From IMG/VR virus record IMGVR_UViG_3300023084_000004: a stretch of DNA of 64,000 nucleotides; one strand, written 5' to 3'. The stretch is from a virus. A program made the position numbers and the translations under genes. Positions 26,142 through 48,257 of the stretch are shown here, in pieces (position 1 is the stretch's first letter; each line of letters starts with the position of its first letter). The notes beneath the pieces were generated by a model. That model was not told the DNA's origin. It made no database searches and saw only the letters and a list, made by a program, of their open reading frames with translations.

Positions 26142-26675
26142 TTAAGCGACTAATGTCGTTTTAACATTCTCTAAATAAGATCTTACAGATTCTGGTGAAG
26201 TTTCTCCATAAGGATCTGTTTCACAATCATCAGATTTACCAGGCTCAATAAACATCTTTTCAACAACACCATCATTTACAACCATAGCATATCTCCAAGA
26301 ACGCTTACCGAAACCAAGATTATCTTTTGCAACTAACATATCCATACCTGCGGTAAATTCGCAAGAACCATCAGGAATAAATGTGATATTTTCTGCTCTT
26401 TGATCATTTTTCCAAGCATTCATAACAAAAGCGTCATTACAAGAAATACAATAAATTGCATCAATACCTAATGCTGCAAACTCCGGCATTAATGCGTTAT
26501 AACCAGGTACCTGAAAATTAGAACAGGTTGGAGTAAAAGCACCGGGAAGAGAAAAAGCTACAACTCTTTTTCCTTTAAAAAAGTCATCGGTAGTTTTATG
26601 AACCCATTCAAATTCGGCGGTATCAACATTGCGTTGTCTTAGTTTGAATGTTACTTGTGGTAAAGTTTTTTCCAT
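26142..26675 (-). CDS. Peroxiredoxin (Prx5/PGdx type)
   Basis: SLPGAFTPTCS, SCNDAFVMNAW, GFGKRSWRYAM; start at MEKTLP. Confidence 0.92.
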   Translation of the reverse strand: MEKTLPQVTFKLRQRNVDTAEFEWVHKTTDDFFKGKRVVAFSLPGAFTPTCSNFQVPGYNALMPEFAALGIDAIYCISCNDAFVMNAWKNDQRAENITFIPDGSCEFTAGMDMLVAKDNLGFGKRSWRYAMVVNDGVVEKMFIEPGKSDDCETDPYGETSPESVRSYLENVKTTLVA

Positions 26676-26704
26676 AATAAATTTCCTTTCAAAACATGTT
26701 ATAA

Positions 26705-26734
26705 AATCGGGAGAGCATTGCACTCTCCCGGATT
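26705..26734 (-). terminator. GC-rich hairpin GGGAGAG/CTCTCCC between hsp20 and peroxiredoxin
   Basis: Inverted repeat followed by T-run on the minus strand. Confidence 0.6.
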
Positions 26735-26738
26735 AAAA

Positions 26739-27185
26739 TTAACCTACTAAGAATTCTTTCTTATTGTCAATTTTGATTTTTTGTGGTCTTTTCTCTTCAG
26801 GAATAATCCTTTCGAGTCCAATGACCAACAAACCATTTTTGAAGTTAGCACCAACTACTTTTAAGTCGTCAGCTAATGTAAAACTACGAGTAAATTTCTT
26901 TTGAGAAATTCCTTTATGTAGTACTACGGCTTCATCATCAGCTTTATCAGTATCAACTGATTTTACTGTAAGAACATCTTCTTTCACTTCAATATCAACA
27001 TCATTAATGTCAAGACCAGCTAATGCAAGTTCAATAGAGAACTTATCGCCGTCTTTATTTCTTTTGATGTTGTAAGGCGGGAAGCCTTGTGATTGATGTA
27101 CTTGTGGGAACTCCACTAATCTGTCAAACATTCTATCGAATCCGACAGCAAAAGGGGTTAAGTGGTTTATATTTAATCCAGTCAT
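26739..27185 (-). CDS. Small heat-shock protein Hsp20 (IbpA-like)
   Basis: VGFDRMF, FPPYNI, IELALAG, LHKGISQKKFTRSFTL, GLLVIGLERIIPEEKRP; SD AGGAGA before MTGLN. Confidence 0.95.
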   Translation of the reverse strand: MTGLNINHLTPFAVGFDRMFDRLVEFPQVHQSQGFPPYNIKRNKDGDKFSIELALAGLDINDVDIEVKEDVLTVKSVDTDKADDEAVVLHKGISQKKFTRSFTLADDLKVVGANFKNGLLVIGLERIIPEEKRPQKIKIDNKKEFLVG

Positions 27186-27279
27186 TTTTTTATCTCCTAT
27201 TAAGCTAGATATTAATATTTGAAGGTATTTACCCTTCACCTTTTCGTATACCCTTTCGGCGTATACAAAACTATTTATT
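27183..27279 (-). promoter_or_regulatory. hsp20 late promoter (AATAAATA) and structured 5'UTR with three hairpins, ROSE-like
   Basis: Hairpins read directly; third hairpin pairs with the SD. Confidence 0.55.
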
Positions 27280-31614: not shown

Positions 31615-32475
31615 TTATTTGCCTTTTGTATATGTTTTCTTATTAGAAGAAGCATTGGCTGTTGCAGTAACACCAAGTTGTCCTAATGCTGCCATATTAC
31701 CTTTAAAGATATATGTACCAACATGATTGATTTGCATCCAAGGACACATCCATACTGAAAGTCCCATTTCTCTTGATTTCTTACAAAAGAAATAGTCTTC
31801 AGATAAGTACCTATTCGTTTCAGGATCAATAATACAATCAAAGAATGCTGTAATATTTCGCGATCCATCAAAGTTTTCAGTACGCGCATGGTCTGGTTTG
31901 TATGATAGTTCTGGATAATTATCTCTAAATTTTTCAAGAGCTTCTCTTGGAATAAGCATAAATCCAGTTCCTGCTTCTGATACTTCAACAGGTTCACTTA
32001 CTTTAAATTCTTTAGTTCCTTTTACAGGATTAAAAACAAAGTCAGAAGTAAATTGCTCAAGGTTAAAAGGATTTTCATTTGCGAATCCAAGTTCTGCAGC
32101 CTTTGCAATTTTTTCCCAAGCAATTGTTTTCTTAGGATAAGGACCAGTTACAATATCATATTTTTCTGGATCAGAAGTTTGAATACCTAAAAGTGCTAAC
32201 GCATCTCTAGGATTAAACCCAATATCACTATCAATAAACAATAAGTGAGTACAATCAGATCTCATAAATTCATCTGCAATATAGTTACGAGCTCTTTGTA
32301 CTAAACTTTCATTAAATAAGAAATAATATCTCATTGGTATTTCATATTTAGTACATAACATACTCAAATCGTTAGTTGATTTTGTAAATAAACCTGAACA
32401 TTGTCCACCATACATTGGTGCACCAACAAACAGTTTATAGTTTTTGAGATCAGTAACGGGTATTTTAAGTTCCAT
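31615..32475 (-). CDS. GT-A fold (GT2-like) glycosyltransferase
   Basis: ESLVQRARN, HLLFIDSDI (DxD), GTGFMLIPR, LSEDYFFC, HVG. Confidence 0.7.
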   Translation of the reverse strand: MELKIPVTDLKNYKLFVGAPMYGGQCSGLFTKSTNDLSMLCTKYEIPMRYYFLFNESLVQRARNYIADEFMRSDCTHLLFIDSDIGFNPRDALALLGIQTSDPEKYDIVTGPYPKKTIAWEKIAKAAELGFANENPFNLEQFTSDFVFNPVKGTKEFKVSEPVEVSEAGTGFMLIPREALEKFRDNYPELSYKPDHARTENFDGSRNITAFFDCIIDPETNRYLSEDYFFCKKSREMGLSVWMCPWMQINHVGTYIFKGNMAALGQLGVTATANASSNKKTYTKGK

Positions 32476-32484
32476 AATATATCC

Positions 32485-33087
32485 TTAATCTAAATCAAAT
32501 TCTGTTCTGTGTAATAGTTGTAATCTGAGAGTATCGATAAGAATATCCCATGAACTATCATGCTTTTTAAATGCTTCTTCCCATTCTGGTAATACGAAAT
32601 CATTTCTTTCTGGAAGATTTAATTTTGCGTCAATCCACGTGCGGGTGTCACGCACGAGATAGTATTTACAATATTCATAGAAATGTTGTTTTTTTCCTTG
32701 AGAATCAAAAAGACGTGTCATAATGACTGGATCAAAAGCATTTGATCTTGTCCACCAATATTTAACATTTGAATCGATAATAAAATTATGAAAGTCATCT
32801 ACAAATTCTTTTACAGTTAAATCAGTTTTTAAAGGTTTAACTCTATCACGTACTTCTTTATCTTGTGATTGCCAAAATTCAATAACAGAATTTTCTACTT
32901 TATAACCATAATTTTCTACTTGATCTTTTACTGAAAGTTTCCATCTTCGAACTGCATTAATATCTTTAACAGTATAAGGTCGCTTTTCAAATCTATCAAA
33001 ATCAAATACGAAAGCAGAAACATCAACTACAGCACAATCCATAGGTTCAGTGCCCATAGTTTCAAAATCAAATATTAAATGTTTCAT
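32485..33087 (-). CDS. dexA: 3'-5' exonuclease, DexA-like (DEDDh)
   Basis: IFDFETMG, WTRSNAFD, VRDTRTW, HDSSWD. Confidence 0.8.
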   Translation of the reverse strand: MKHLIFDFETMGTEPMDCAVVDVSAFVFDFDRFEKRPYTVKDINAVRRWKLSVKDQVENYGYKVENSVIEFWQSQDKEVRDRVKPLKTDLTVKEFVDDFHNFIIDSNVKYWWTRSNAFDPVIMTRLFDSQGKKQHFYEYCKYYLVRDTRTWIDAKLNLPERNDFVLPEWEEAFKKHDSSWDILIDTLRLQLLHRTEFDLD

Positions 33088-34277
33088 AGGAATGCCTCAA
33101 GTGTATCATGCTTTTCAATATAGTCTGCGGTTTGAGTATTATTATACTGCATTACGTAGTCTGTGTCAACCATTTGTAGCTCATTATTTAAATATTTTTT
33201 TACTTCTGTCGCCATGTCTGTTGCCGTTTGAACGGGAACATTTTGACAAATATGGTTGAAAGATTTTTTCGGATTGAGTAACTCGAAGTCCAAAGGTAAA
33301 CCCATGATTGCCATAGCTTCTCTGTAATTAATATAACGATCATCGTCAGGATGAGTAAGTTTGACAGGATAATGCCCAACAAAAGCACCGATAAAGTCTT
33401 TAGGAACAATGGTACCTCTTCGCATAATGTTTCCACCAGCTTTGAGCTTCTCATATCTGTATTTACATTTCTCAACTTCTTTTTCATATCCATGTTTTTC
33501 CATCCATTCGCCGACTTGAGCATAGTCATGCCCGTATCTTTCTATGTATGCATATACGCATTGACCTCTTGCACTTTGAGGTTCTACCATATCAGAAAAT
33601 TCTTTATGAGTAATTCCACCATGAATATGTTCTAAAATATATTTGTAATATAAATCATCTTGAGATGGAATTTTTGGATTAATACATTCAGTTTGGAAGT
33701 TAGAACCTCCTGCGCTTCTTATAACATCTTCAATAGCTGGTCGTTCTTTATTATAATATGAAAGTAATGGAGTTTTTTCGCCGCGCCAAAAGAAATAGAA
33801 TGAACGTTCTCTTACTTGAGATGAACCATGTAATAACGATTTAGTTCTATAAACAGTCATTGTATAACCTTGTTCAAGACCAATTCGTCTCATTTCATTT
33901 CGTATATTTTCACCAATCTTACCAGCAAAACCTGGAGCGTTTTCACCCCAAAATACTTTTGGTTTAATTTCACCAAGAACATATTTTGCTGTTTCGATAA
34001 GCCATTTATTATTTGGATTATGATCTCCAAATCCTTGAGAAAGCATACTTAATCCAGCACAAGGACATACAGAAGATATTACATCAACACTCTCTGTAGG
34101 TTTCTCTCCTTTGTCTAGGACATAGTAAGGAACGTCGCTATAGTAATTAAGGATATGAGAATCGTTGTCCTTGAAGGCCTCGTATGACATCATATAGGTT
34201 GGTTTTTCACCAAACGCATTGACTGATCCAATAGTTTCACCACCTATAAGTGGTACGATAGAAGCGTGTTTAATCAT
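33084..34277 (-). CDS. C5-cytosine methyltransferase-like protein with atypical motif I
   Basis: VCPCAGLS (motif IV), WGENAPG (VI), QVRERSF (VIII), CQNVPV (X); motif I reads IVPLIGG instead of FxGxG. Confidence 0.75.
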   Translation of the reverse strand: MIKHASIVPLIGGETIGSVNAFGEKPTYMMSYEAFKDNDSHILNYYSDVPYYVLDKGEKPTESVDVISSVCPCAGLSMLSQGFGDHNPNNKWLIETAKYVLGEIKPKVFWGENAPGFAGKIGENIRNEMRRIGLEQGYTMTVYRTKSLLHGSSQVRERSFYFFWRGEKTPLLSYYNKERPAIEDVIRSAGGSNFQTECINPKIPSQDDLYYKYILEHIHGGITHKEFSDMVEPQSARGQCVYAYIERYGHDYAQVGEWMEKHGYEKEVEKCKYRYEKLKAGGNIMRRGTIVPKDFIGAFVGHYPVKLTHPDDDRYINYREAMAIMGLPLDFELLNPKKSFNHICQNVPVQTATDMATEVKKYLNNELQMVDTDYVMQYNNTQTADYIEKHDTLEAFL

Positions 34278-35277
34278 TTAAAAATTTACTCACTGATACT
34301 AATGATGAATTTATGACTTGGTGCATATCTAAATAGACATACATTCCGCATCTTCCTATAAAAGTGACTTTAGAGTTTTCGATATCTCGATATTGCTTGT
34401 ATCTTTCACGATTAATACCATCTACATCATTTATGGGATAATATCTTTCCATGTTATTGTCTTTATAATCACATGGTTCCTCATAAGTTACTGTAGTGGT
34501 TAAGTCGTTTTTACCATGTTCTGGAATGTTTTTCCATTCTGTTACTCGAGTATATGGTCCATCGTGTGTAAAATTGACTGTTGCGGTAGGAAGCACTCTT
34601 GTTTGTGGAATACTCATTGTATGAAACTTGAGTGATCTGTAAGGTAATTCTCCAAAGCAATAATCATAATATACATCAATTGGCATAGAATTAAATACGT
34701 GATCGTATTCATCTTCCATACTCTTGTTAAACTCTGTTGAAAGTTGCACTGTTATATTCTCATGATTTAAAATATTTTCAAAAAGTTTTGTATAGCCATC
34801 TTTTGGCATATACTGATATTTATCTTTCGGAAAATAGTATTCGTTTAGATCATCACGAATAGGTACTCTTGCAATAATACCAGGATTTAATTCATCGAGC
34901 TCTTTACCCCACATTTTTCTTGTATAAGGTCTAAAGAAAATATCAAGCACATTTTCTTCACCAACAATTTCTTTAGTTTCTTTATTTACAGGTAAAGTAA
35001 CATATTGTCCATCATTTAATAAGGCTTTTACTTTATGCTTATATTCTACCCATTCACCATATTGCATTAACCAGTTTACAACTTTTTCATTATCTGTATG
35101 AAATAAGTGTGGACCATATTTGTGTACACGAATACCATTTTCATCAGTATAATCATAAGCATTACCTGCAATATGATTTCTTAAATCAATAACATGTACT
35201 TTATGACCAGCATTTGCAAGTTCTCTTGCGTGAACTGCACCCGCAAATCCTGCGCCAACTACTAAATAATTTTTCAT
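34270..35277 (-). CDS. glf: UDP-galactopyranose mutase
   Basis: VVGAGFAG, IAGNAYD, HKYGPHLFHT, YQYMPKDGY, LPYRSL, YTRVTEWK, RYYP, GRCGMYVYLDMHQ. Confidence 0.95.
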   Translation of the reverse strand: MKNYLVVGAGFAGAVHARELANAGHKVHVIDLRNHIAGNAYDYTDENGIRVHKYGPHLFHTDNEKVVNWLMQYGEWVEYKHKVKALLNDGQYVTLPVNKETKEIVGEENVLDIFFRPYTRKMWGKELDELNPGIIARVPIRDDLNEYYFPKDKYQYMPKDGYTKLFENILNHENITVQLSTEFNKSMEDEYDHVFNSMPIDVYYDYCFGELPYRSLKFHTMSIPQTRVLPTATVNFTHDGPYTRVTEWKNIPEHGKNDLTTTVTYEEPCDYKDNNMERYYPINDVDGINRERYKQYRDIENSKVTFIGRCGMYVYLDMHQVINSSLVSVSKFLND

Positions 35278-36365
35278 GCGTTTAATACTATTTCAAATTC
35301 ACTTCTTGTTTTTTCTTTATCTAGAGGATGATGCTTATATAGTGCATCGCGTTGACCTTGAGCAAATTCTTGTAATTGTTTCACATTCATAGCTTCAATA
35401 TCTTCAGCAATACGTGTAGATAAGTATTCATCCTGATAGTAAACAAATAATTCTTTAGGATCACCAATAAGAATACTTCCTGCATCAGCAACCTGTAAAG
35501 GCCTTGCTCTCCACCAACCAGATCCTGAGTGGAAATATCCAGGCATTAAACATCCCCATTGTTCTGCATATACTTTACACATTTGGTCTTCAGTAAGTCT
35601 TTCTGATTTTTCTTCACCGCGCTTTGCACCATAGATATTCATTGGCCACTCTTGAATGTTTTGAAGTTTCAACCATTTTCGAGTTTTCTTTTGTACTAAC
35701 GAAGCAAAGTTCCATTCTAATTTTTTATCTTTTACTTCTACTCCACCACCAAAAAGTGTTGATACACCAGAAAGAAAATCATTATCTGGAGTACGATTAT
35801 AGTGATAAGGGTTAGGATTGAAACGATATATTTTATCAGGATTCCAACCGAGATTGAGCAAACTTAAATCACCAAGATCAAATGCAGAAATTAACAATCT
35901 GTTTTCTTTATTTAGCATAATATCACATGCTGCTACAAAATTGTCTTTGTATTTTTTCAGAGTGTTAATATCATATTGTGTACATTGAAGATCTAAAAGA
36001 TATTGTCTAAATGCTTTGTCTTCTGGTTCATCAAGGTTTCCACGAAATCCTTGAATACCACCATAAATCTGATCAACCTGCCAATCGTCAAATGCAAGAA
36101 TAGCATCTGGTCTTTGAGATAGTGCGTAACATCCAGAATATAAATTTTGACAGAAAGATTGTGGACTATGCATATAAAAGATTACTTCATCATAGTGTGA
36201 AATATCTTCGCCTAATGCTACTTCTCTTTGCTCAACTTCATATCCCATTTCTCTAAGACAACGTAATACTGCATATTGAGAAGGTACTACTTGTAATTGC
36301 TGTCTTAGAAAAAAGTCTTCAGTACACTGAGCTTTGTTCATTCCAGTGATTAATATTTTTTTCAT
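35274..36365 (-). CDS. GT-B glycosyltransferase resembling T4 DNA beta-glucosyltransferase
   Basis: VVPSQYAVLRCLREMGYEV, DISHYDEVIF and WWRARPLQVADAGSILIGD align by eye with remembered T4 BGT segments; similar length. Confidence 0.65.
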   Translation of the reverse strand: MKKILITGMNKAQCTEDFFLRQQLQVVPSQYAVLRCLREMGYEVEQREVALGEDISHYDEVIFYMHSPQSFCQNLYSGCYALSQRPDAILAFDDWQVDQIYGGIQGFRGNLDEPEDKAFRQYLLDLQCTQYDINTLKKYKDNFVAACDIMLNKENRLLISAFDLGDLSLLNLGWNPDKIYRFNPNPYHYNRTPDNDFLSGVSTLFGGGVEVKDKKLEWNFASLVQKKTRKWLKLQNIQEWPMNIYGAKRGEEKSERLTEDQMCKVYAEQWGCLMPGYFHSGSGWWRARPLQVADAGSILIGDPKELFVYYQDEYLSTRIAEDIEAMNVKQLQEFAQGQRDALYKHHPLDKEKTRSEFEIVLNA

Positions 36366-37144
36366 AATTTAACTATATCCTCAAGTGTGTGTTTTGGATT
36401 CATAAACATAGAATTGAAAGGTACTTCAGATTTTGCATTATCACCTTCTCTTCTTTCTCCATATTTTACTTCAAATAATGGACCGTTTACTCTTAAAAAT
36501 TCTTCAATGTATTCTTTAACTGTATAAGACTGTCCTGATCCAAGCGGTTCATAATCTGACATTGCAGCCGGTTCATAAATTGCTTTTACAATTGCATCTG
36601 TAAGATCTTCTACGTGAACATAATCTCTTACTGGAGTACCATCTTTAGTATCATAATCAGATCCAAAAATTGTAAATGTTCCTGATTGAATTGCATTTTG
36701 AGTTGCTGCATATAATCCTTCAGGATTGTTAGGTACTCCACCTCCAACATTATAAAATCTAAAAATCGTATATTCTTTACAAAGTTGTTTTACAATATCT
36801 TCTGCAACTACTTTTGATCTTGCATAAGGTGATGTTGGATCAAATGCCGCTCCTGTTGAAGCAAATATAAATTTAGCATTTGGAAATGCATCAATTACAT
36901 TTTTAGTTCCATTAATGTTAGTATTATAATATTCAAATGGATTCTTTACGCTTTCACCAACTTTAACTAATGCTGCTAAATGTACAACTACATCTACTGT
37001 TGGATTAGTAGGATTAGAATATTTTGTAATATCCCAATCTTTAATATCGTAAAAGACCGCTCGAACATTGCGTTCACTTAACTTTTTTCTTAATACTGAA
37101 CCGATATATCCATCGGCACCTGTTACTACAACTTTTTTATTCAT
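36362..37144 (-). CDS. galE: UDP-sugar 4-epimerase (GalE-like extended SDR)
   Basis: VTGADGYIGS, HLAALVKVGESV, SPYARSK (YxxxK), FRFYNV, DGTPVRDYVHVEDL. Confidence 0.9.
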   Translation of the reverse strand: MNKKVVVTGADGYIGSVLRKKLSERNVRAVFYDIKDWDITKYSNPTNPTVDVVVHLAALVKVGESVKNPFEYYNTNINGTKNVIDAFPNAKFIFASTGAAFDPTSPYARSKVVAEDIVKQLCKEYTIFRFYNVGGGVPNNPEGLYAATQNAIQSGTFTIFGSDYDTKDGTPVRDYVHVEDLTDAIVKAIYEPAAMSDYEPLGSGQSYTVKEYIEEFLRVNGPLFEVKYGERREGDNAKSEVPFNSMFMNPKHTLEDIVKL

Positions 37145-37152
37145 AATTTTCT

Positions 37153-37181
37153 ATTATAACACAATTAAACTGAAATGTCAA
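37153..37181 (-). promoter_or_regulatory. Sigma70-type promoter TTGACA-N17-TATAAT heading the galE-GT-glf-MTase-dexA-GT unit
   Basis: Exact consensus; genes downstream overlap or abut until the next promoter at about 31610. Confidence 0.75.
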
Positions 37182-37617
37182 CAAATTCGTAATCAACTAA
37201 TGCTTCTTTAAAAAGCTCTTTTGTATTATCAAAAGATTCAATCCATCTTTCTGGAACATCTATCATTGAAGGCATTACAATACGTTTAGTACCAACTTGA
37301 ATAACACCTTTTGCACATTCTGAACAAACTGGTAATCCCCAAACATATAATGTACTATTATTTAGTGAAATTCCATTATAAGTCGCATTATATATTGCGT
37401 TTTGTTCAGCATGAACTACAAGTTTATACTTTTCTTCTCTATTTTCATATCGATCTAAAGTATCTTCAATGTTGCGTGGAAAGCCATTATATCCAGTTGC
37501 AAGAATGCGTCTTTCGTCAGAAACGAAAACTGCACCAATTTGTTTACTTGGATCTTTACTCCATGTTGAAATTTCTCTTGCTAAACCGAGAAATCTTTTA
37601 TCCCACTTGACGCTCAT
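37165..37617 (-). CDS. cd: dCMP deaminase
   Basis: SKDPSKQIGAV, TGYNGFP, VHAEQNAI, PVCSECAK; start at MSVKW. Confidence 0.93.
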   Translation of the reverse strand: MSVKWDKRFLGLAREISTWSKDPSKQIGAVFVSDERRILATGYNGFPRNIEDTLDRYENREEKYKLVVHAEQNAIYNATYNGISLNNSTLYVWGLPVCSECAKGVIQVGTKRIVMPSMIDVPERWIESFDNTKELFKEALVDYEFVDISV

Positions 37618-38272
37618 TAATGTAGTCTTGTATAAAGTTGAAATGTCTTTCGTAGACATGAAAATTAGAAGCGGTCCAAATTAAATCACCAACTTCTACA
37701 CCTAGATCATCTGCAAGTTTTGATTGAACATAACGTGCCCATGCATAATCATTATTATAACCAAAAACAGCATCATTAGATCTCATAATATAATGAGATA
37801 TTAATTGCTTATTTCGAATATAGAATGTATTTGCGTAAGTACACATAAAGTCATTCATATTATTAGCATTATAATCTGTATGCATACTTGGACGATTGTA
37901 GATCATTGTTGCTCTACGAGAGTTATGATTCCTAGATAATTCTCTTAAAACGTTTTCGTATTGATTACCATTTTCTTTAGTAAAAATACACCAACCATAA
38001 TTTGAATTAATGAATCCATTATCATCAGAAACATCTAACCAAATTTGTGGAGTTTTACCAGGAATATCATTAACGTTTAATGAACAGCTTTTATACCATT
38101 GAAGTTCACGTTCAATATATTCATAAGCTGGTTTACGAATAACATAATCCTCGTCAGCAATAAATGTCGCACCAAGTACTTCAATTGTTTTAGCACCTGT
38201 ACGATCAATAACCCAATCACCTTGAAGATAATCGGTTACAATTTGATTACGTATATCTTTTACTTTTAACAT
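37598..38272 (-). CDS. gp42: dCMP hydroxymethylase (T4 gp42 type, thymidylate-synthase fold)
   Basis: DRTGAKTIEVLGATFIADE, RELQWYKS, DIPGKTPQIW, INSNYGW, RPSMH, DFMCT (catalytic Cys), RSNDAVFGYNNDYAW with Asp at the dCMP-specificity position (Asn in ThyA). Confidence 0.9.
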   Translation of the reverse strand: MLKVKDIRNQIVTDYLQGDWVIDRTGAKTIEVLGATFIADEDYVIRKPAYEYIERELQWYKSCSLNVNDIPGKTPQIWLDVSDDNGFINSNYGWCIFTKENGNQYENVLRELSRNHNSRRATMIYNRPSMHTDYNANNMNDFMCTYANTFYIRNKQLISHYIMRSNDAVFGYNNDYAWARYVQSKLADDLGVEVGDLIWTASNFHVYERHFNFIQDYINERQVG

Positions 38273-38475
38273 TAAAACTCCTCAGCCCATTCTGCAAAAT
38301 CCTCATGCAGAAAATCAAGATCATCTACAAAAGTTCCATAGGATTCCATAGCATCATCAATAGATTCACCTTCTTCAAGCTCATAATATTTGACCCAGAA
38401 TTTACCAGCAACTGCAACTTCTTCTTCATTTGCTTCTGGATCTACTACTTCAATAACACAAACTTTTCTAGGCAT
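38272..38475 (-). CDS. Very acidic small protein
   Basis: 21 D/E versus 4 K/R in 67 aa by manual count. Confidence 0.65.
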   Translation of the reverse strand: MPRKVCVIEVVDPEANEEEVAVAGKFWVKYYELEEGESIDDAMESYGTFVDDLDFLHEDFAEWAEEF

Positions 38476-38729
38476 TAAATGGTCTCCAATAGTGTTTCAA
38501 TATCATCAAGTTCAGCTACAACTGCGGGTAGATTTTGTTTATGATAAATCCTAGCCATTTTACGTAGAATATTTTTAGGAATATCTACATCTTCGGCTAA
38601 AGCATTAATTGCTTCTTTTTGAAAAGAACGTTCGGCTTCTACTCGAGTAAATGAATTACTCATTTCTTCCATAGCACCTTTAATTCTTTTTTTATCTTCA
38701 TCACTTGAAGGAATAATCACATTACTCAT
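38475..38729 (-). CDS. dsbA: dsDNA-binding protein, T4 DsbA/GapR-like
   Basis: Helical pattern ending ILRKMARIYHKQN..ELDDIETLLETI. Confidence 0.65.
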   Translation of the reverse strand: MSNVIIPSSDEDKKRIKGAMEEMSNSFTRVEAERSFQKEAINALAEDVDIPKNILRKMARIYHKQNLPAVVAELDDIETLLETI

Positions 38730-39073
38730 TATTTAATTCTCCTATTGTATACATCATTATTAGTATTTTGTCCTGGAATTTTACCACGACAATATGAAAC
38801 AAAAAATGCAGAATAATTAATTAAATCTTTTGCTGAATCTTCGAGTGATTCGAAATTTGGATTATAGTCATCACTTTGCATTGCTTCCATAACTGATTTC
38901 ATACGGAGCATTTTTGCATTCATAACATCATAGATTGAATCAATACCACGAGGGTAGTAATCTGCTTGTTGAACAGTTGAATTTGGATTTTGATAATCGC
39001 GAGATTTTTTCAACTGTAAGTCGATACATTCTTGAAGAACGTTGACTGCTTCGGGATTGGTTTGTTTACTCAT
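38729..39073 (-). CDS. DUF1599/nucleotide-modification-associated all-alpha pyrophosphatase-like protein
   Basis: LQLKKSRDY, KMLR, ESLEDSAKDLINYSAF. Confidence 0.7.
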   Translation of the reverse strand: MSKQTNPEAVNVLQECIDLQLKKSRDYQNPNSTVQQADYYPRGIDSIYDVMNAKMLRMKSVMEAMQSDDYNPNFESLEDSAKDLINYSAFFVSYCRGKIPGQNTNNDVYNRRIK

Positions 39074-39387: not shown

Positions 39388-39801
39388 TTAAAATAAATCT
39401 TGAAAGATACCATGATTATCTTCATGGCTTGGAGCAGTCCACCCCTCAGGTTTTACAAGATCTGGTACGCCCAGTGGATTGGGTCTTGTTTCTTTAACAC
39501 CTACTTCTTTTGCCATATTTGCTTTGAGAACTGTATCCCAAGCTTTATGTGCATCAATACCATAGGCATCTAATGTACCAATTGCAACAACACAAAGATC
39601 AATTAAACCATCTACGATTTCTTCTGCATCTTCATTATTGAATGCTTTTCTTGTTTCGTCGAGTTCTTCTTGGAGAAAGTTAATTCTAAACTTTAAAAAC
39701 TCTTTAAGCTTTTCATCGTCTTGCATACTATATCTAACCCATTCACGAGTTTGATATTTAGTCTGCATGTCATGAATATCTTGTACCCAATCTTTACTCA
39801 T
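39388..39801 (-). CDS. MazG-like/PRA-PH nucleoside triphosphate pyrophosphohydrolase
   Basis: FLQEELDE, EEIVDGLIDLCVVAIG, VLKANMAK, DLVKPEGW. Confidence 0.85.
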   Translation of the reverse strand: MSKDWVQDIHDMQTKYQTREWVRYSMQDDEKLKEFLKFRINFLQEELDETRKAFNNEDAEEIVDGLIDLCVVAIGTLDAYGIDAHKAWDTVLKANMAKEVGVKETRPNPLGVPDLVKPEGWTAPSHEDNHGIFQDLF

Positions 39802-40018
39802 TTTCAAAATACTCCATTAGTTCGTTATATCCACCAATATTTTTATCTTCAACTACTATCTGCGGAAATGTTCTTGCAGATGGAAATTTTTCAAAAAATT
39901 GCGGTGGAGTATAATCCTCATTAAGCATTAAGTATTCATACTCAACACCTTTTTGCTCGCATAATGTTTTAGCCATATTACAATATGCACAAGACTCTTT
40001 ACCGTATATAGTAATCAT
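39794..40018 (-). CDS. nrdC: Glutaredoxin
   Basis: CAYC, RTFPQI, IGGYNEL. Confidence 0.9.
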   Translation of the reverse strand: MITIYGKESCAYCNMAKTLCEQKGVEYEYLMLNEDYTPPQFFEKFPSARTFPQIVVEDKNIGGYNELMEYFENE

Positions 40019-40335: not shown

Positions 40336-40364
40336 ATTATAACACAGTTTATTTGAAATGTCAA
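40336..40364 (-). promoter_or_regulatory. Sigma70-type promoter TTGACA-N17-TATAAT
   Basis: Exact consensus. Confidence 0.7.
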
Positions 40365-41134
40365 CCTTTTTCTTTAAATAAAGATTCGACATTAAAGTTT
40401 TCATATTGTTCTGGCATTGGCATTGGTTTTACCCAAGTGATTTCTCTATTATATGGATTATATGTTTCACCTTTAAAATAATCTTCCATACAAACAAGTT
40501 CACCAGGAAACTCTTTATACATTTTAGCCATTTCTTCATACCGTTCAACAAGACCACGAATTAATGGAAATGCTCTTTCGTTCTCACCAAAGTTTGGTTG
40601 ATCTTCTAAATCAACAGTAATTCTATAAGGTTCATCTTCTTTACCCATTGTTGCTAAATGAATTTGTCTTTGATTTTCAGTCATGTTTCGAAGATAATCT
40701 CTTACATTTCTTTTAAATCCAGTACCACCAAAGTTTCCATCTTGTCTTACTGCAACCCAACTTTCACATTGAGCTCTAAAATCTCTTCTATAAAGATAGT
40801 AGATTCTATCTACTGCATTCAATATTCTACTTACATGTTCTTCATTTCTTACTTGAATTGGAATTAATTTAAAACAACATGGGTGTCCGGCTTCAAGTTG
40901 TTCTATAAATCTTTCATGACTTATACAAGCTTCTCTTTCTACAGGATCCTGATATTTTTCCATCTCTTTCCAAGGTGAATTAATCAATTGCCATTTTGCT
41001 CTTGCTTCACCTAGATCATAAGGTCTTGGATCACTAAACATTTCACCTTTATAAGGCACACCATATTCTTCTGCTTTTTTTAATGTAAACGACGTACTCG
41101 CTGTACGATAATTTGCGATAATTGCTATTCTCAT
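40361..41134 (-). CDS. Sulfotransferase-like P-loop protein
   Basis: IIANYRTASTSF (PAPS-binding loop-like), YKGEMF, CFKL, YYLYRRDFRAQCESW (3'-phosphate motif-like), LVCMED. Confidence 0.5.
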   Translation of the reverse strand: MRIAIIANYRTASTSFTLKKAEEYGVPYKGEMFSDPRPYDLGEARAKWQLINSPWKEMEKYQDPVEREACISHERFIEQLEAGHPCCFKLIPIQVRNEEHVSRILNAVDRIYYLYRRDFRAQCESWVAVRQDGNFGGTGFKRNVRDYLRNMTENQRQIHLATMGKEDEPYRITVDLEDQPNFGENERAFPLIRGLVERYEEMAKMYKEFPGELVCMEDYFKGETYNPYNREITWVKPMPMPEQYENFNVESLFKEKG

Positions 41135-46572: not shown

Positions 46573-47202
46573 CTACTCCTTGACTGCGGCTGTATTTAAA
46601 TCTAATACATCTGTATTTAAATCTAATACAACGTCATCATCAGTCTTTGTCACTCTAACACTGTGATCTTCAGTTTGTTTTAAAGCGGAAAGATATTTTG
46701 CTAACATTCCTCTTTGTTTTACAATCTTAGTTTTCTTTTTCAGTGCTCTTTCATATTTAACACGTGATACTACCTTATTAAAAGTAATACCTTGAAGGTG
46801 TTCATATTCATGGATAAAACATCTTGCTCCATATCCTTCTACTTTACCTTCTTGTGGTTGCATATTTTCATCAAACCATTTTGCAATGACGAAAGCTGGA
46901 CGTTTAATTTGCATAAACACATCTGGAAAACTTAGACATCCTTCAACTTCATTAATTTCTTCTGAACTTACTGACACAATTTCTGGATTAATTACCATGA
47001 TTGCAGTTTCAGCATCTTCACCCATAACAAATAATTTATAGTCAAGTCCAACTTGACATGCAGAAAGACCGAGACCTTTCTTACTAATCATAAGTTCTAC
47101 CATGTCTTTCTTAAGTTGTACTGGATCAAATCCAGGATTCTCAAGATCAACATCCTTTAACTCCTTCGCCAAAATTGGGTCTGGAAAATATACTAGTTTC
47201 AT
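46573..47202 (-). CDS. def: Peptide deformylase with extended C-terminus
   Basis: GLGLSACQVG, EGCLS, HEYEHLQG. Confidence 0.92.
   Translation of the reverse strand: MKLVYFPDPILAKELKDVDLENPGFDPVQLKKDMVELMISKKGLGLSACQVGLDYKLFVMGEDAETAIMVINPEIVSVSSEEINEVEGCLSFPDVFMQIKRPAFVIAKWFDENMQPQEGKVEGYGARCFIHEYEHLQGITFNKVVSRVKYERALKKKTKIVKQRGMLAKYLSALKQTEDHSVRVTKTDDDVVLDLNTDVLDLNTAAVKE
46590..46630. repeat. 21-bp tandem duplication encoding VLDLNT twice at the PDF C-terminus
   Basis: CTGTATTTAAATCTAATACA twice. Confidence 0.85.
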
Positions 47203-47624: not shown

Positions 47625-47838
47625 CCTTTTGTACTCCAAATTTAATGTACTTATACCATACACGTTCGTGATAATAATATAAGATCATTTTAGTAGCAAC
47701 CTCAAATCCGGCGATCATACCAGCCCAATCTACTTGTCCTGTAATTAACCAAGCAAGTAAAAAGGTATCTGTTGTTGCTAAGACTCTCCATGTTAATGTT
47801 TTTGCGACATGACGTTTTGCACTTACCTTCTCTGCCAT
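47617..47838 (-). CDS. DUF2061 small membrane protein
   Basis: RHVAKTLTWR, EVATKMILYYYHERVW. Confidence 0.88.
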   Translation of the reverse strand: MAEKVSAKRHVAKTLTWRVLATTDTFLLAWLITGQVDWAGMIAGFEVATKMILYYYHERVWYKYIKFGVQKDV

Positions 47839-48257
47839 TGTGAAAACGCCTTTTCTAAAATTGGTTCAAGTTTTAATTCTTCTTGAGGTCTAAATGAATC
47901 TACTATGTAATCAATACTATCAACATCAGGAGCTTCAAAGACTTTATTCGTATCTTCAAATCTACCTTCATCAATAGTATTCATCCAAATAACATAATCA
48001 GGTTCAAATTCATCTCTTGCCTTTTGAAAAGGACAAACGAAATCTGCAATAGCAATTTTACCTGCCATAGAAACTCCGTCTGCAAGATGTCTCATTCGAG
48101 CAGCTTGTCTCATTCTGCCTTCATCTGAGAAATCCCAATCATTATATTTTTCTCTAACTGCGTCTGCATTAATCCAAACACCTTCAACCAAATCTGCTAA
48201 TGGTTGTGATAACGTACTCTTGCCCGAGCCAGGTAGTCCAAAGACCAGTACTTTCAT
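47823..48257 (-). CDS. Adenylylsulfate kinase-like (CysC-like) P-loop kinase, short form
   Basis: GLPGSGKST, NADAVR, WDFSDEGRMRQAARM, ADFVCP. Confidence 0.75.
   Translation of the reverse strand: MKVLVFGLPGSGKSTLSQPLADLVEGVWINADAVREKYNDWDFSDEGRMRQAARMRHLADGVSMAGKIAIADFVCPFQKARDEFEPDYVIWMNTIDEGRFEDTNKVFEAPDVDSIDYIVDSFRPQEELKLEPILEKAFSQWQRR

What the first reader, a model, noticed from the sequence alone, without database searches (positions are those of the whole stretch)
31615..38272. Candidate new DNA hypermodification: furanose-sugar (galactofuranosyl or arabinofuranosyl) hydroxymethylcytosine
Seen: a gp42-type dCMP hydroxymethylase (catalytic Cys in DFMCT, dCMP-selecting Asp in YNND) and dCMP deaminase lie directly upstream of a consensus promoter (37153-37181). 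That promoter heads an overlapping gene run: GalE-like epimerase, GT-B glycosyltransferase with T4 beta-glucosyltransferase-like segments, UDP-galactopyranose mutase, C5-MTase-like protein, DexA, GT-A glycosyltransferase. Established: T4 makes hm-dCMP with gp42 and glucosylates hmC in DNA with BGT using host UDP-Glc; GalE plus Glf convert UDP-Glc to UDP-Galp to UDP-Galf; some T4 relatives carry arabinosylated cytosines. Inference: this phage builds its own furanose donor and transfers it to hmC. That would give Galf-hmC (or Araf-hmC if the epimerase/mutase act on pentoses), a base I do not know to be described. It would plausibly evade glucosyl-hmC-specific type IV nucleases.
Basis: partly seen in the sequence, partly recalled or inferred. 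Interest (0 to 1): 0.93.

Follow-up and report, generated by a model that had tools for sequence, protein, structure and literature searches.

The report
Phage galactofuranose DNA sugar-coating cassette
An uncultured T4-like phage most likely makes 5-hydroxymethylcytosine and hangs the five-membered-ring sugar galactofuranose on it in its own DNA, a chemically unproven variant of T4's sugar camouflage that can be tested in cultured phages carrying the same genes.

Summary
Observation largely confirmed. The window encodes a T4-type dCMP hydroxymethylase (D143/C146/D169/D177, not the D169N 5-hydroxylase type), dCMP deaminase, GalE, a GT-B protein whose closest solved fold is T4 beta-glucosyltransferase, UDP-galactopyranose mutase and a C5-methyltransferase. 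Evidence for a DNA target: in relatives the same slot between deaminase and methyltransferase holds T4 alpha-glucosyltransferase orthologs or other GT-plus-donor cassettes; the GalE-GT-mutase trio also follows TET/JBP dioxygenases; distant GT homologs are fused to C5-methyltransferases. GalE never occurs without the mutase (0/32), pointing to UDP-Galf. Best reading: Galf-hmC (0.6); chemistry unshown. Corrections: DexA and the GT-A gene have their own promoter and the GT-A is a lineage core gene; a mutase-free GT clade exists; type IV evasion is not assured. Galf on 5-hydroxycytosine is already proposed for Rhizobium phage RL38J1 (PMC13326640), with an unrelated GT. This scan noted the same idea in at least eight other genomes. 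The methyltransferase's role beside hmC synthesis is unexplained.

The parts
37598..38272 (-). T4 gp42-type dCMP hydroxymethylase (ThyA-numbered D143, C146, D169, D177): makes hm-dCMP
   Evidence: diagnostic residues per PMC13326640
37165..37659 (-). dCMP deaminase (second ATG near 37617 may be the true start)
37153..37181 (-). Perfect sigma70-type promoter with extended -10 heading galE-GT-glf-MTase
36362..37144 (-). GalE-like UDP-glucose 4-epimerase (YxxxK intact): UDP-Glc to UDP-Galp
35274..36365 (-). GT-B glycosyltransferase (phrog_14998), remote relative of T4 beta-glucosyltransferase; predicted DNA galactofuranosyltransferase
34270..35277 (-). UDP-galactopyranose mutase (Glf): UDP-Galp to UDP-Galf
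33084..34277 (-). C5-cytosine methyltransferase-like protein, motifs IV, VI, VIII, X kept, atypical motif I; fixed partner of gp42 in this lineage; role unresolved
33141..33169 (-). Second perfect promoter, inside the MTase 3' end, serving DexA and GT-A
32485..33087 (-). DexA-like 3'-5' exonuclease; probably a neighbour, not part of the sugar pathway (25/80 loci)
31615..32475 (-). GT-A-like protein (phrog_1574); lineage core gene before gp45, present in phiM12 and DLP6 without the module
39388..39807 (-). PRA-PH/MazG-like nucleotide pyrophosphohydrolase; candidate dCTPase, travels with the module
38729..39073 (-). Nucleotide-modification-associated domain 1 (DUF1599, weak) protein, upstream of gp42 in 54/80 loci

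Best explanation
A T4-like phage of unknown host makes hm-dCMP with gp42 (shown by homology and diagnostic residues), incorporates hmC during replication (inferred from T4), makes UDP-Galp with GalE and UDP-Galf with Glf (enzyme families shown; activity inferred), and its BGT-fold glycosyltransferase transfers galactofuranose to the hydroxymethyl group of hmC in DNA (inferred), probably with inversion like BGT, giving beta-D-Galf-hmC (weakly inferred). galE-GT-glf is one of several interchangeable 'GT plus donor' cassettes that plug in between the deaminase and the methyltransferase. The C5-methyltransferase most likely methylates cytosines that escape replacement, since no T4-type dCTPase was found (inferred, about 0.6). 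Purpose: protection from host nucleases.
For: gp42 has D143/C146/D169/D177 here and in all 69 related copies read in full; RL38J1 control has N169. GT model pLDDT 95; top hits T4 BGT in two searches (Foldseek E 3.7e-7; Z 17.2, rmsd 3.6, 289 aligned), T4 AGT next; profile match to the BGT family, probability 95.7%, E 9e-9, R288/Q291 on BGT R269/E272. Slot replacement: of 32 MTase-anchored loci with enough upstream DNA, 31 have gp42 and 14 hold T4 AGT orthologs (35-42% identity, E 1e-90 to 1e-102) where the window has galE-GT-glf; others hold a BGT-like GT with epimerase and UDP-Glc dehydrogenase, or a GT4-like gene. The GT-glf pair, mostly with galE, follows a TET/JBP gene in 17 of 19 loci of another clade and in phage C48C1, which has no gp42. 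14 of 20 long GT homologs are fusions to a C5-MTase domain, beside D177-type synthases. Of 116 GT loci, 75 have Glf adjacent; GalE in 32, never without Glf. The Glf-free clade shows fixed changes in the two segments matching BGT's donor loops. Family essentially virus-only: 1 hit in 185,579 genomes. Aeromonas phage 25 and Erwinia FBB1 have gp42, GT and Glf and no detectable AGT or BGT. GGCC and CCGG are not avoided (O/E 1.44, 1.27, weak).
Against: No chemistry. Fold scores to BGT lead non-DNA GT-B enzymes by only 1.5 Z (glycogen synthase 15.7). About a third of GT loci lack adjacent Glf; one 125-kb contig has none; the label changes at least 6-8 times on the tree, and actinophage GTs about 82% identical to DSL-LC01 occur with and without Glf. 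A distant homolog sits in the arabinose cluster of Morganella phage Rgz1 with a D169N synthase, so the family is not donor-fixed. The donor-loop changes rest on one clade. No hm-dNMP kinase or gp56 dCTPase was found in the window, and only one kinase in four 70-83% complete relatives. Locus counts are not dereplicated.
Confidence: 0.6

Rival explanations
1. Same acceptor (hmC in DNA) but another sugar: galactopyranose, GalfNAc, L-arabinofuranose or glucose.
For: The GalE-like protein has Ser where E. coli GalE has the Tyr299 gatekeeper (alignment; meaning from memory), which may admit N-acetyl sugars; mutases accept L-Arap (from memory); Glf-free GT clade; Rgz1 homolog among arabinose genes; HexNAc and epimerase-dependent hexoses on hmC are known.
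Against: GalE never occurs without Glf (0/32), so Galp alone is unlikely to be the end donor; Glf keeps the His of the Galp-type YGPHxFH motif in nearly all copies (the Arg of GalNAc mutases is from memory); no UDP-Xyl or pentose-donor enzyme found in the cassette.
Confidence: 0.25
2. The cassette glycosylates something other than DNA (virion protein or host surface glycan), and sits by gp42 by accident.
For: Glf and GalE normally serve envelope glycans; non-DNA GT-B enzymes score nearly as well structurally; virion glycosylation is known in other phages (from memory).
Against: Slot shared with true T4 AGT orthologs; fusion to DNA C5-MTases; coupling to TET/JBP; almost no cellular homologs; the profile match is to BGT.
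Confidence: 0.07
3. The sugar goes on a different base or product: hmU from deaminated hm-dCMP, or a base first reworked by the C5-MTase-like protein acting on hmC.
For: Some phage deaminases next to D177 synthases deaminate hm-dC (bioRxiv 10.1101/2024.12.05.627091); one fusion locus has an hmU-kinase helical domain; the TET clade lacks a detectable C5-MTase; the MTase is the most constant partner of gp42 (31/32) and keeps its catalytic Cys.
Against: T4-type AGT in the same slot is an hmC enzyme; the deaminase is missing in many loci (56/80); Aeromonas 25 and FBB1 have GT and Glf without this MTase; its closest isolate homolog, in S-TIM5, has the same odd motif I and no gp42 or GT of this family.
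Confidence: 0.08

Closest known systems
T4 glucosyl-hmC pathway (gp42, gp1, gp56, cd, alpha-GT, beta-GT/CAZy GT63, Pfam PF09198)
   Same: gp42 ortholog (E 9e-67) with the same four diagnostic residues; GT-B transferase with BGT as nearest fold and profile; relatives carry true AGT in the same slot.
   Different: GT is below family detection (no PF09198, 11-12% structural identity); phage supplies its own donor via GalE and Glf; no gp56 or gp1 found in the window; a C5-MTase is a fixed partner.
Rhizobium phage RL38J1 / Pootjesviridae Gal(-Glc-Glc)-5-hydroxycytosine (PMC13326640)
   Same: Phage-encoded UDP-galactopyranose mutase (34% identical); galactose on C5-modified cytosine; UDP-Galf proposed as donor.
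   Different: Acceptor there is 5-hydroxycytosine (D169N synthase); mutase is far from the GT; its gp215 GT shows no similarity to this family; Galf is proposed, not shown, in the text I could read.
RB69/DLP3 arabinofuranosyl-5-hydroxycytosine (PMC13326640)
   Same: Furanose sugar on cytosine, phage-built donor, GT-B transferases.
   Different: 5hoC not hmC; D-Araf from arabinose-5-phosphate, no mutase or GalE.
TET/5mYOX + C5-MTase + GT clusters (bioRxiv 10.1101/2023.12.21.572611)
   Same: Epimerase-coupled GTs adding diverse sugars to hmC; C5-MTase in the cluster.
   Different: There the MTase feeds TET; here no TET was seen and hmC comes from gp42; the paper never mentions a mutase or furanose.

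Membership tests
T4 gp42 dCMP hydroxymethylase | Catalytic Cys, Asp at ThyA 177 (dCMP), acidic residue at 143, Asp at 169 | tested here: met
T4 gp42 dCMP hydroxymethylase | Makes hm-dCMP | not testable with these tools
   needs in vivo or in vitro assay
5-hydroxy-dCMP synthase (RB69 gp48, RL38J1 gp216) | D169N | tested here: not met
   window has D169; controls RL38J1 and Rgz1 have N
T4 beta-glucosyltransferase (GT63, PF09198) | Pfam PF09198 or direct sequence match | tested here: not met
   no Pfam hit, no PDB sequence hit
T4 beta-glucosyltransferase (GT63, PF09198) | GT-B fold nearest to BGT; conserved UDP-binding Arg motif | tested here: met
T4 beta-glucosyltransferase (GT63, PF09198) | Catalytic base equal to D100 | tested here: inconclusive
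   D94 is nearly invariant and follows the matching strand, but no residue-level superposition was available
T4 beta-glucosyltransferase (GT63, PF09198) | UDP-glucose donor, hmC-DNA acceptor | not testable with these tools
   context points to UDP-Galf instead
UDP-galactopyranose mutase (Glf) | FAD-binding fold plus PF03275 with conserved active-site Trp, Arg, Tyr | tested here: met
UDP-glucose 4-epimerase (GalE) | Extended SDR, GxxGxxG, Ser/Thr, YxxxK; best hits GalE | tested here: met
   substrate range untested
RL38J1-type Gal-5hoC system | gp215-type galactosyltransferase with D169N synthase | tested here: not met
MTase-TET-GT clusters | TET/JBP dioxygenase beside the MTase | tested here: not met
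   no TET hit in the 80 GT-anchored loci or the 52 MTase-anchored loci; rest of genome not held
C5 DNA methyltransferase | Motifs IV (PC), VI, VIII, X | tested here: met
C5 DNA methyltransferase | Motif I FxGxG for SAM binding | tested here: inconclusive

The most novel reading that the evidence does not exclude
Beyond Galf-hmC, the C5-methyltransferase-fold protein, which stays with gp42 whatever sugar cassette is present and is fused to this GT family in other phages with no TET in view, acts on hmC itself through its catalytic Cys (exchange to 5mC at chosen sites, or coupling a group to the hydroxymethyl carbon), giving a new DNA-editing chemistry and a two-tier cytosine code.
Probability: 0.12. 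Interest if true: 0.85.

Novelty: new variant of a known kind. Interest (0 to 1): 0.57.

Why it matters
If true it adds an undescribed base (Galf-hmC) and a new DNA glycosyltransferase family of about 600 clusters at 50% identity, spread over aquatic T4-like phages, Tulanevirus, an Erwinia phage and actinophages. It shows a swappable sugar slot in one fixed scaffold, a direct view of how phages vary DNA camouflage. It is cheap to test because cultured phages carry the GT-glf pair. A second hmC-tagging enzyme with a different donor could serve 5hmC mapping, as T4 BGT does. The gp42-plus-methyltransferase pairing poses an open mechanistic question.

Tried and rejected
No whole genome held. Direct sequence and profile searches of the GT against PDB gave nothing credible. 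Single-sequence hhalign to BGT was weak; AGT and RL38J1 gp215 gave nothing. PF09198 search without a positive control was uninformative; repeated with T4 as control. No IMG/VR relatives of the Rgz1 GT. Two papers I wanted (the 2013 NAR survey of base-modifying systems; the 2012 S-TIM5 paper) were not held, so S-TIM5 cytosine methylation is from memory only. RL38J1 supplement not held. Dinucleotide bias was uninformative. The GT tree is the quick version with long-branch warnings. Rejected: 5-hydroxycytosine acceptor (D169 kept); GT-A as second sugar step (present before gp45 in phiM12 and DLP6, which lack the GT; DLP6 has no gp42 match, phiM12 only a weak one), though a role is not excluded; Araf as first choice. 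Ten literature searches found no chemical report of Galf-hmC; the library omits most subscription journals.
Full report
Setting. The window is part of an AT-rich (about 33% GC) T4-like myovirus; its gp43 is at best 45.7% identical to cyanophage S-RIM12. Host unknown. The region lies on the minus strand between gp43 and gp45. The same gene order is found in three other assemblies.

Observation. All eight genes exist with the stated identities. The promoter at 37181-37153 is a perfect consensus; the window has 11 such sites against 0.04 expected. One correction: another perfect promoter at 33169-33141 precedes DexA and the GT-A gene. The GT-A gene also sits before gp45 in phiM12 and DLP6, where the GT family is not detected. 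The pathway proper is therefore gp42, deaminase, galE, GT, glf and the methyltransferase, with a PRA-PH pyrophosphohydrolase upstream.

Acceptor. PMC13326640 gives diagnostic positions (ThyA numbering): D177 for dCMP, acidic 143 for hydroxymethylation, D169N for 5-hydroxylation. The window enzyme and all 69 related copies read in full have D143, C146, D169, D177; RL38J1 and Rgz1 controls have N169. So hmC, not 5-hydroxycytosine, is predicted.

Transferase. The 363-aa protein has no Pfam or PDB sequence match. Its AlphaFold model (pLDDT 95) is GT-B; T4 BGT ranks first in Foldseek (E 3.7e-7) and in the exhaustive search (Z 17.2, rmsd 3.6, 289 aligned; AGT 16.2; glycogen synthase 15.7). The margin is small, so fold alone does not prove a DNA target. 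Profile-profile comparison with a BGT family alignment gives 95.7%, E 9e-9, over the C-terminal domain, placing R288 and Q291 on BGT R269 and E272 (their role in UDP binding is from memory). D94 is nearly invariant and lies where BGT has its base D100, by motif position only.

Four context tests point to DNA. (1) Anchoring on the methyltransferase, 31 of 32 loci with enough upstream DNA have gp42, and the slot after the deaminase is variable: T4 AGT orthologs in 14 (35-42% identity), this GT in 3, a BGT-like GT with epimerase and UDP-Glc dehydrogenase, a GT4-like gene, or a four-gene unknown block. The window's galE-GT-glf fills that slot. (2) In another clade, including cultured phage C48C1, GT-glf, mostly with galE, follows a TET/JBP dioxygenase instead of gp42. 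(3) Fourteen of 20 long homologs are fused to a C5-MTase domain, three with a UDG domain too; three such loci also hold PRA-PH, a thymidylate-synthase homolog and a deaminase, with no TET called, and the two synthases read have D143/D169/D177. (4) One hit only among 185,579 prokaryote genomes, on a short MAG contig.

Donor. Of 116 GT loci with downstream sequence, 75 have glf adjacent; galE is in 32 and never without glf, as expected if the mutase is the committed step. GT and glf are adjacent in Aeromonas phage 25, Erwinia FBB1, C48C1 and DSL-LC01. Against a fixed donor: a 13-member clade lacks glf (98% support, quick tree; none in a 125-kb contig). That clade has fixed changes at positions 22-28 and 287-290, the segments matching BGT's donor loops; RxRP becomes RxRV. 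This fits a donor switch but is a single event. Actinophage GTs occur with and without glf at similar identity; actinobacterial hosts often make UDP-Galf themselves (from memory; Corynebacterium has Glf in the control). A distant homolog lies in the arabinose cluster of Rgz1. Counts are not dereplicated.

Methyltransferase. It keeps motifs IV, VI, VIII and X; motif I is atypical but shared with S-TIM5 (31% identity), which lacks gp42 and the GT. No gp56-type dCTPase was found in four 70-83% complete relatives, with T4 as weak positive control, so replacement of C may be partial and the enzyme may methylate the remainder. PRA-PH could equally be the dCTPase, in which case the enzyme would lack its normal substrate. 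This is the open point. It is not required for the sugar step: phage 25 and FBB1 lack it.

Comparison with the literature. T4 glucosyl-hmC is the working model. RL38J1 carries galactose on 5-hydroxycytosine and a mutase, with UDP-Galf proposed, but uses another acceptor and an unrelated GT. Epimerase-dependent hexoses on hmC are known from TET clusters, with no mutase mentioned. I found no chemical report of Galf-hmC. BrxU cuts all tested sugar modifications, so escape from type IV enzymes cannot be assumed. Earlier notes of this scan reached the Galf-hmC idea in at least eight other genomes; they are not independent support.

Verdict. A new variant of a known kind: predicted Galf-hmC made by a BGT-related, unnamed GT family in a swappable cassette. 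DNA target about 0.9, Galf given that about 0.7, overall 0.6. Interest 0.57.

Noticed in passing
L001:7580-11027 (phage C48C1) and L101-L119: TET/JBP followed by (galE)-GT-glf with no C5-MTase detected in C48C1: may give a galactofuranose analogue of base J (Galf-hmU).
   Followed up: partly
P0172, P0176, P0179, P0198, P0229, P0262 and others; L142-L145: C5-MTase-(UDG)-GT fusion proteins of 750-1400 aa beside PRA-PH, a dCMP-type synthase and deaminase, no TET called; two carry inteins.
   Followed up: partly
L148-L199: A fixed gp42-deaminase-[slot]-MTase scaffold with at least five different sugar cassettes; L186/L188/L193 hold four genes of 289-387 aa with no Pfam match.
   Followed up: partly
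window 40361-41134; L159-L161: The unassigned 257-aa gene after gp43 has homologs inside the sugar slot, next to AGT or the GT4-like gene; an APS-kinase-like gene lies at 47823-48257. Possible sulfation of the DNA sugar.
   Followed up: partly
L088:4941-6008 (Morganella phage Rgz1): Distant member of the GT family inserted in an arabinosyl-5-hydroxycytosine cluster; also hit in two Providencia phages.
   Followed up: partly
L090 (Aeromonas phage 44RR2.8t): Has hmC-type gp42 but no detected AGT, BGT or this GT family; its glycosylation, if any, is unexplained.
   Followed up: no
L087, L004 (Gordonia BlueNGold, DSL-LC01): Actinophages carry the GT, a second divergent GT-like gene, MazG, a C5-MTase and a D143/D169/D177 synthase with deaminase: likely unrecognised hmC glycosylation.
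   Followed up: partly
window, 11 sites from 28478 to 57518: Eleven perfect TTGACA-17-TATAAT promoters, several sharing TTGACATTTCA and GTTATAAT; two lie inside the 3' ends of coding genes.
   Followed up: no
window 38272-38475: Acidic 67-aa ORF coupled to gp42, no PHROG match.
   Followed up: no
window 26142-27239, 39794-40018, 46573-47202: Peroxiredoxin, Hsp20, glutaredoxin and peptide deformylase; Pfam also finds a phosphomannomutase-like and two FkbM methyltransferase ORFs among the window's other genes.
   Followed up: no
L073:13888-15051, L074:14203-15366: Homolog of RL38J1 gp151 (proposed second glucosyltransferase, E 1e-31) near GT-glf: possible Gal-Glc extension on hmC.
   Followed up: no
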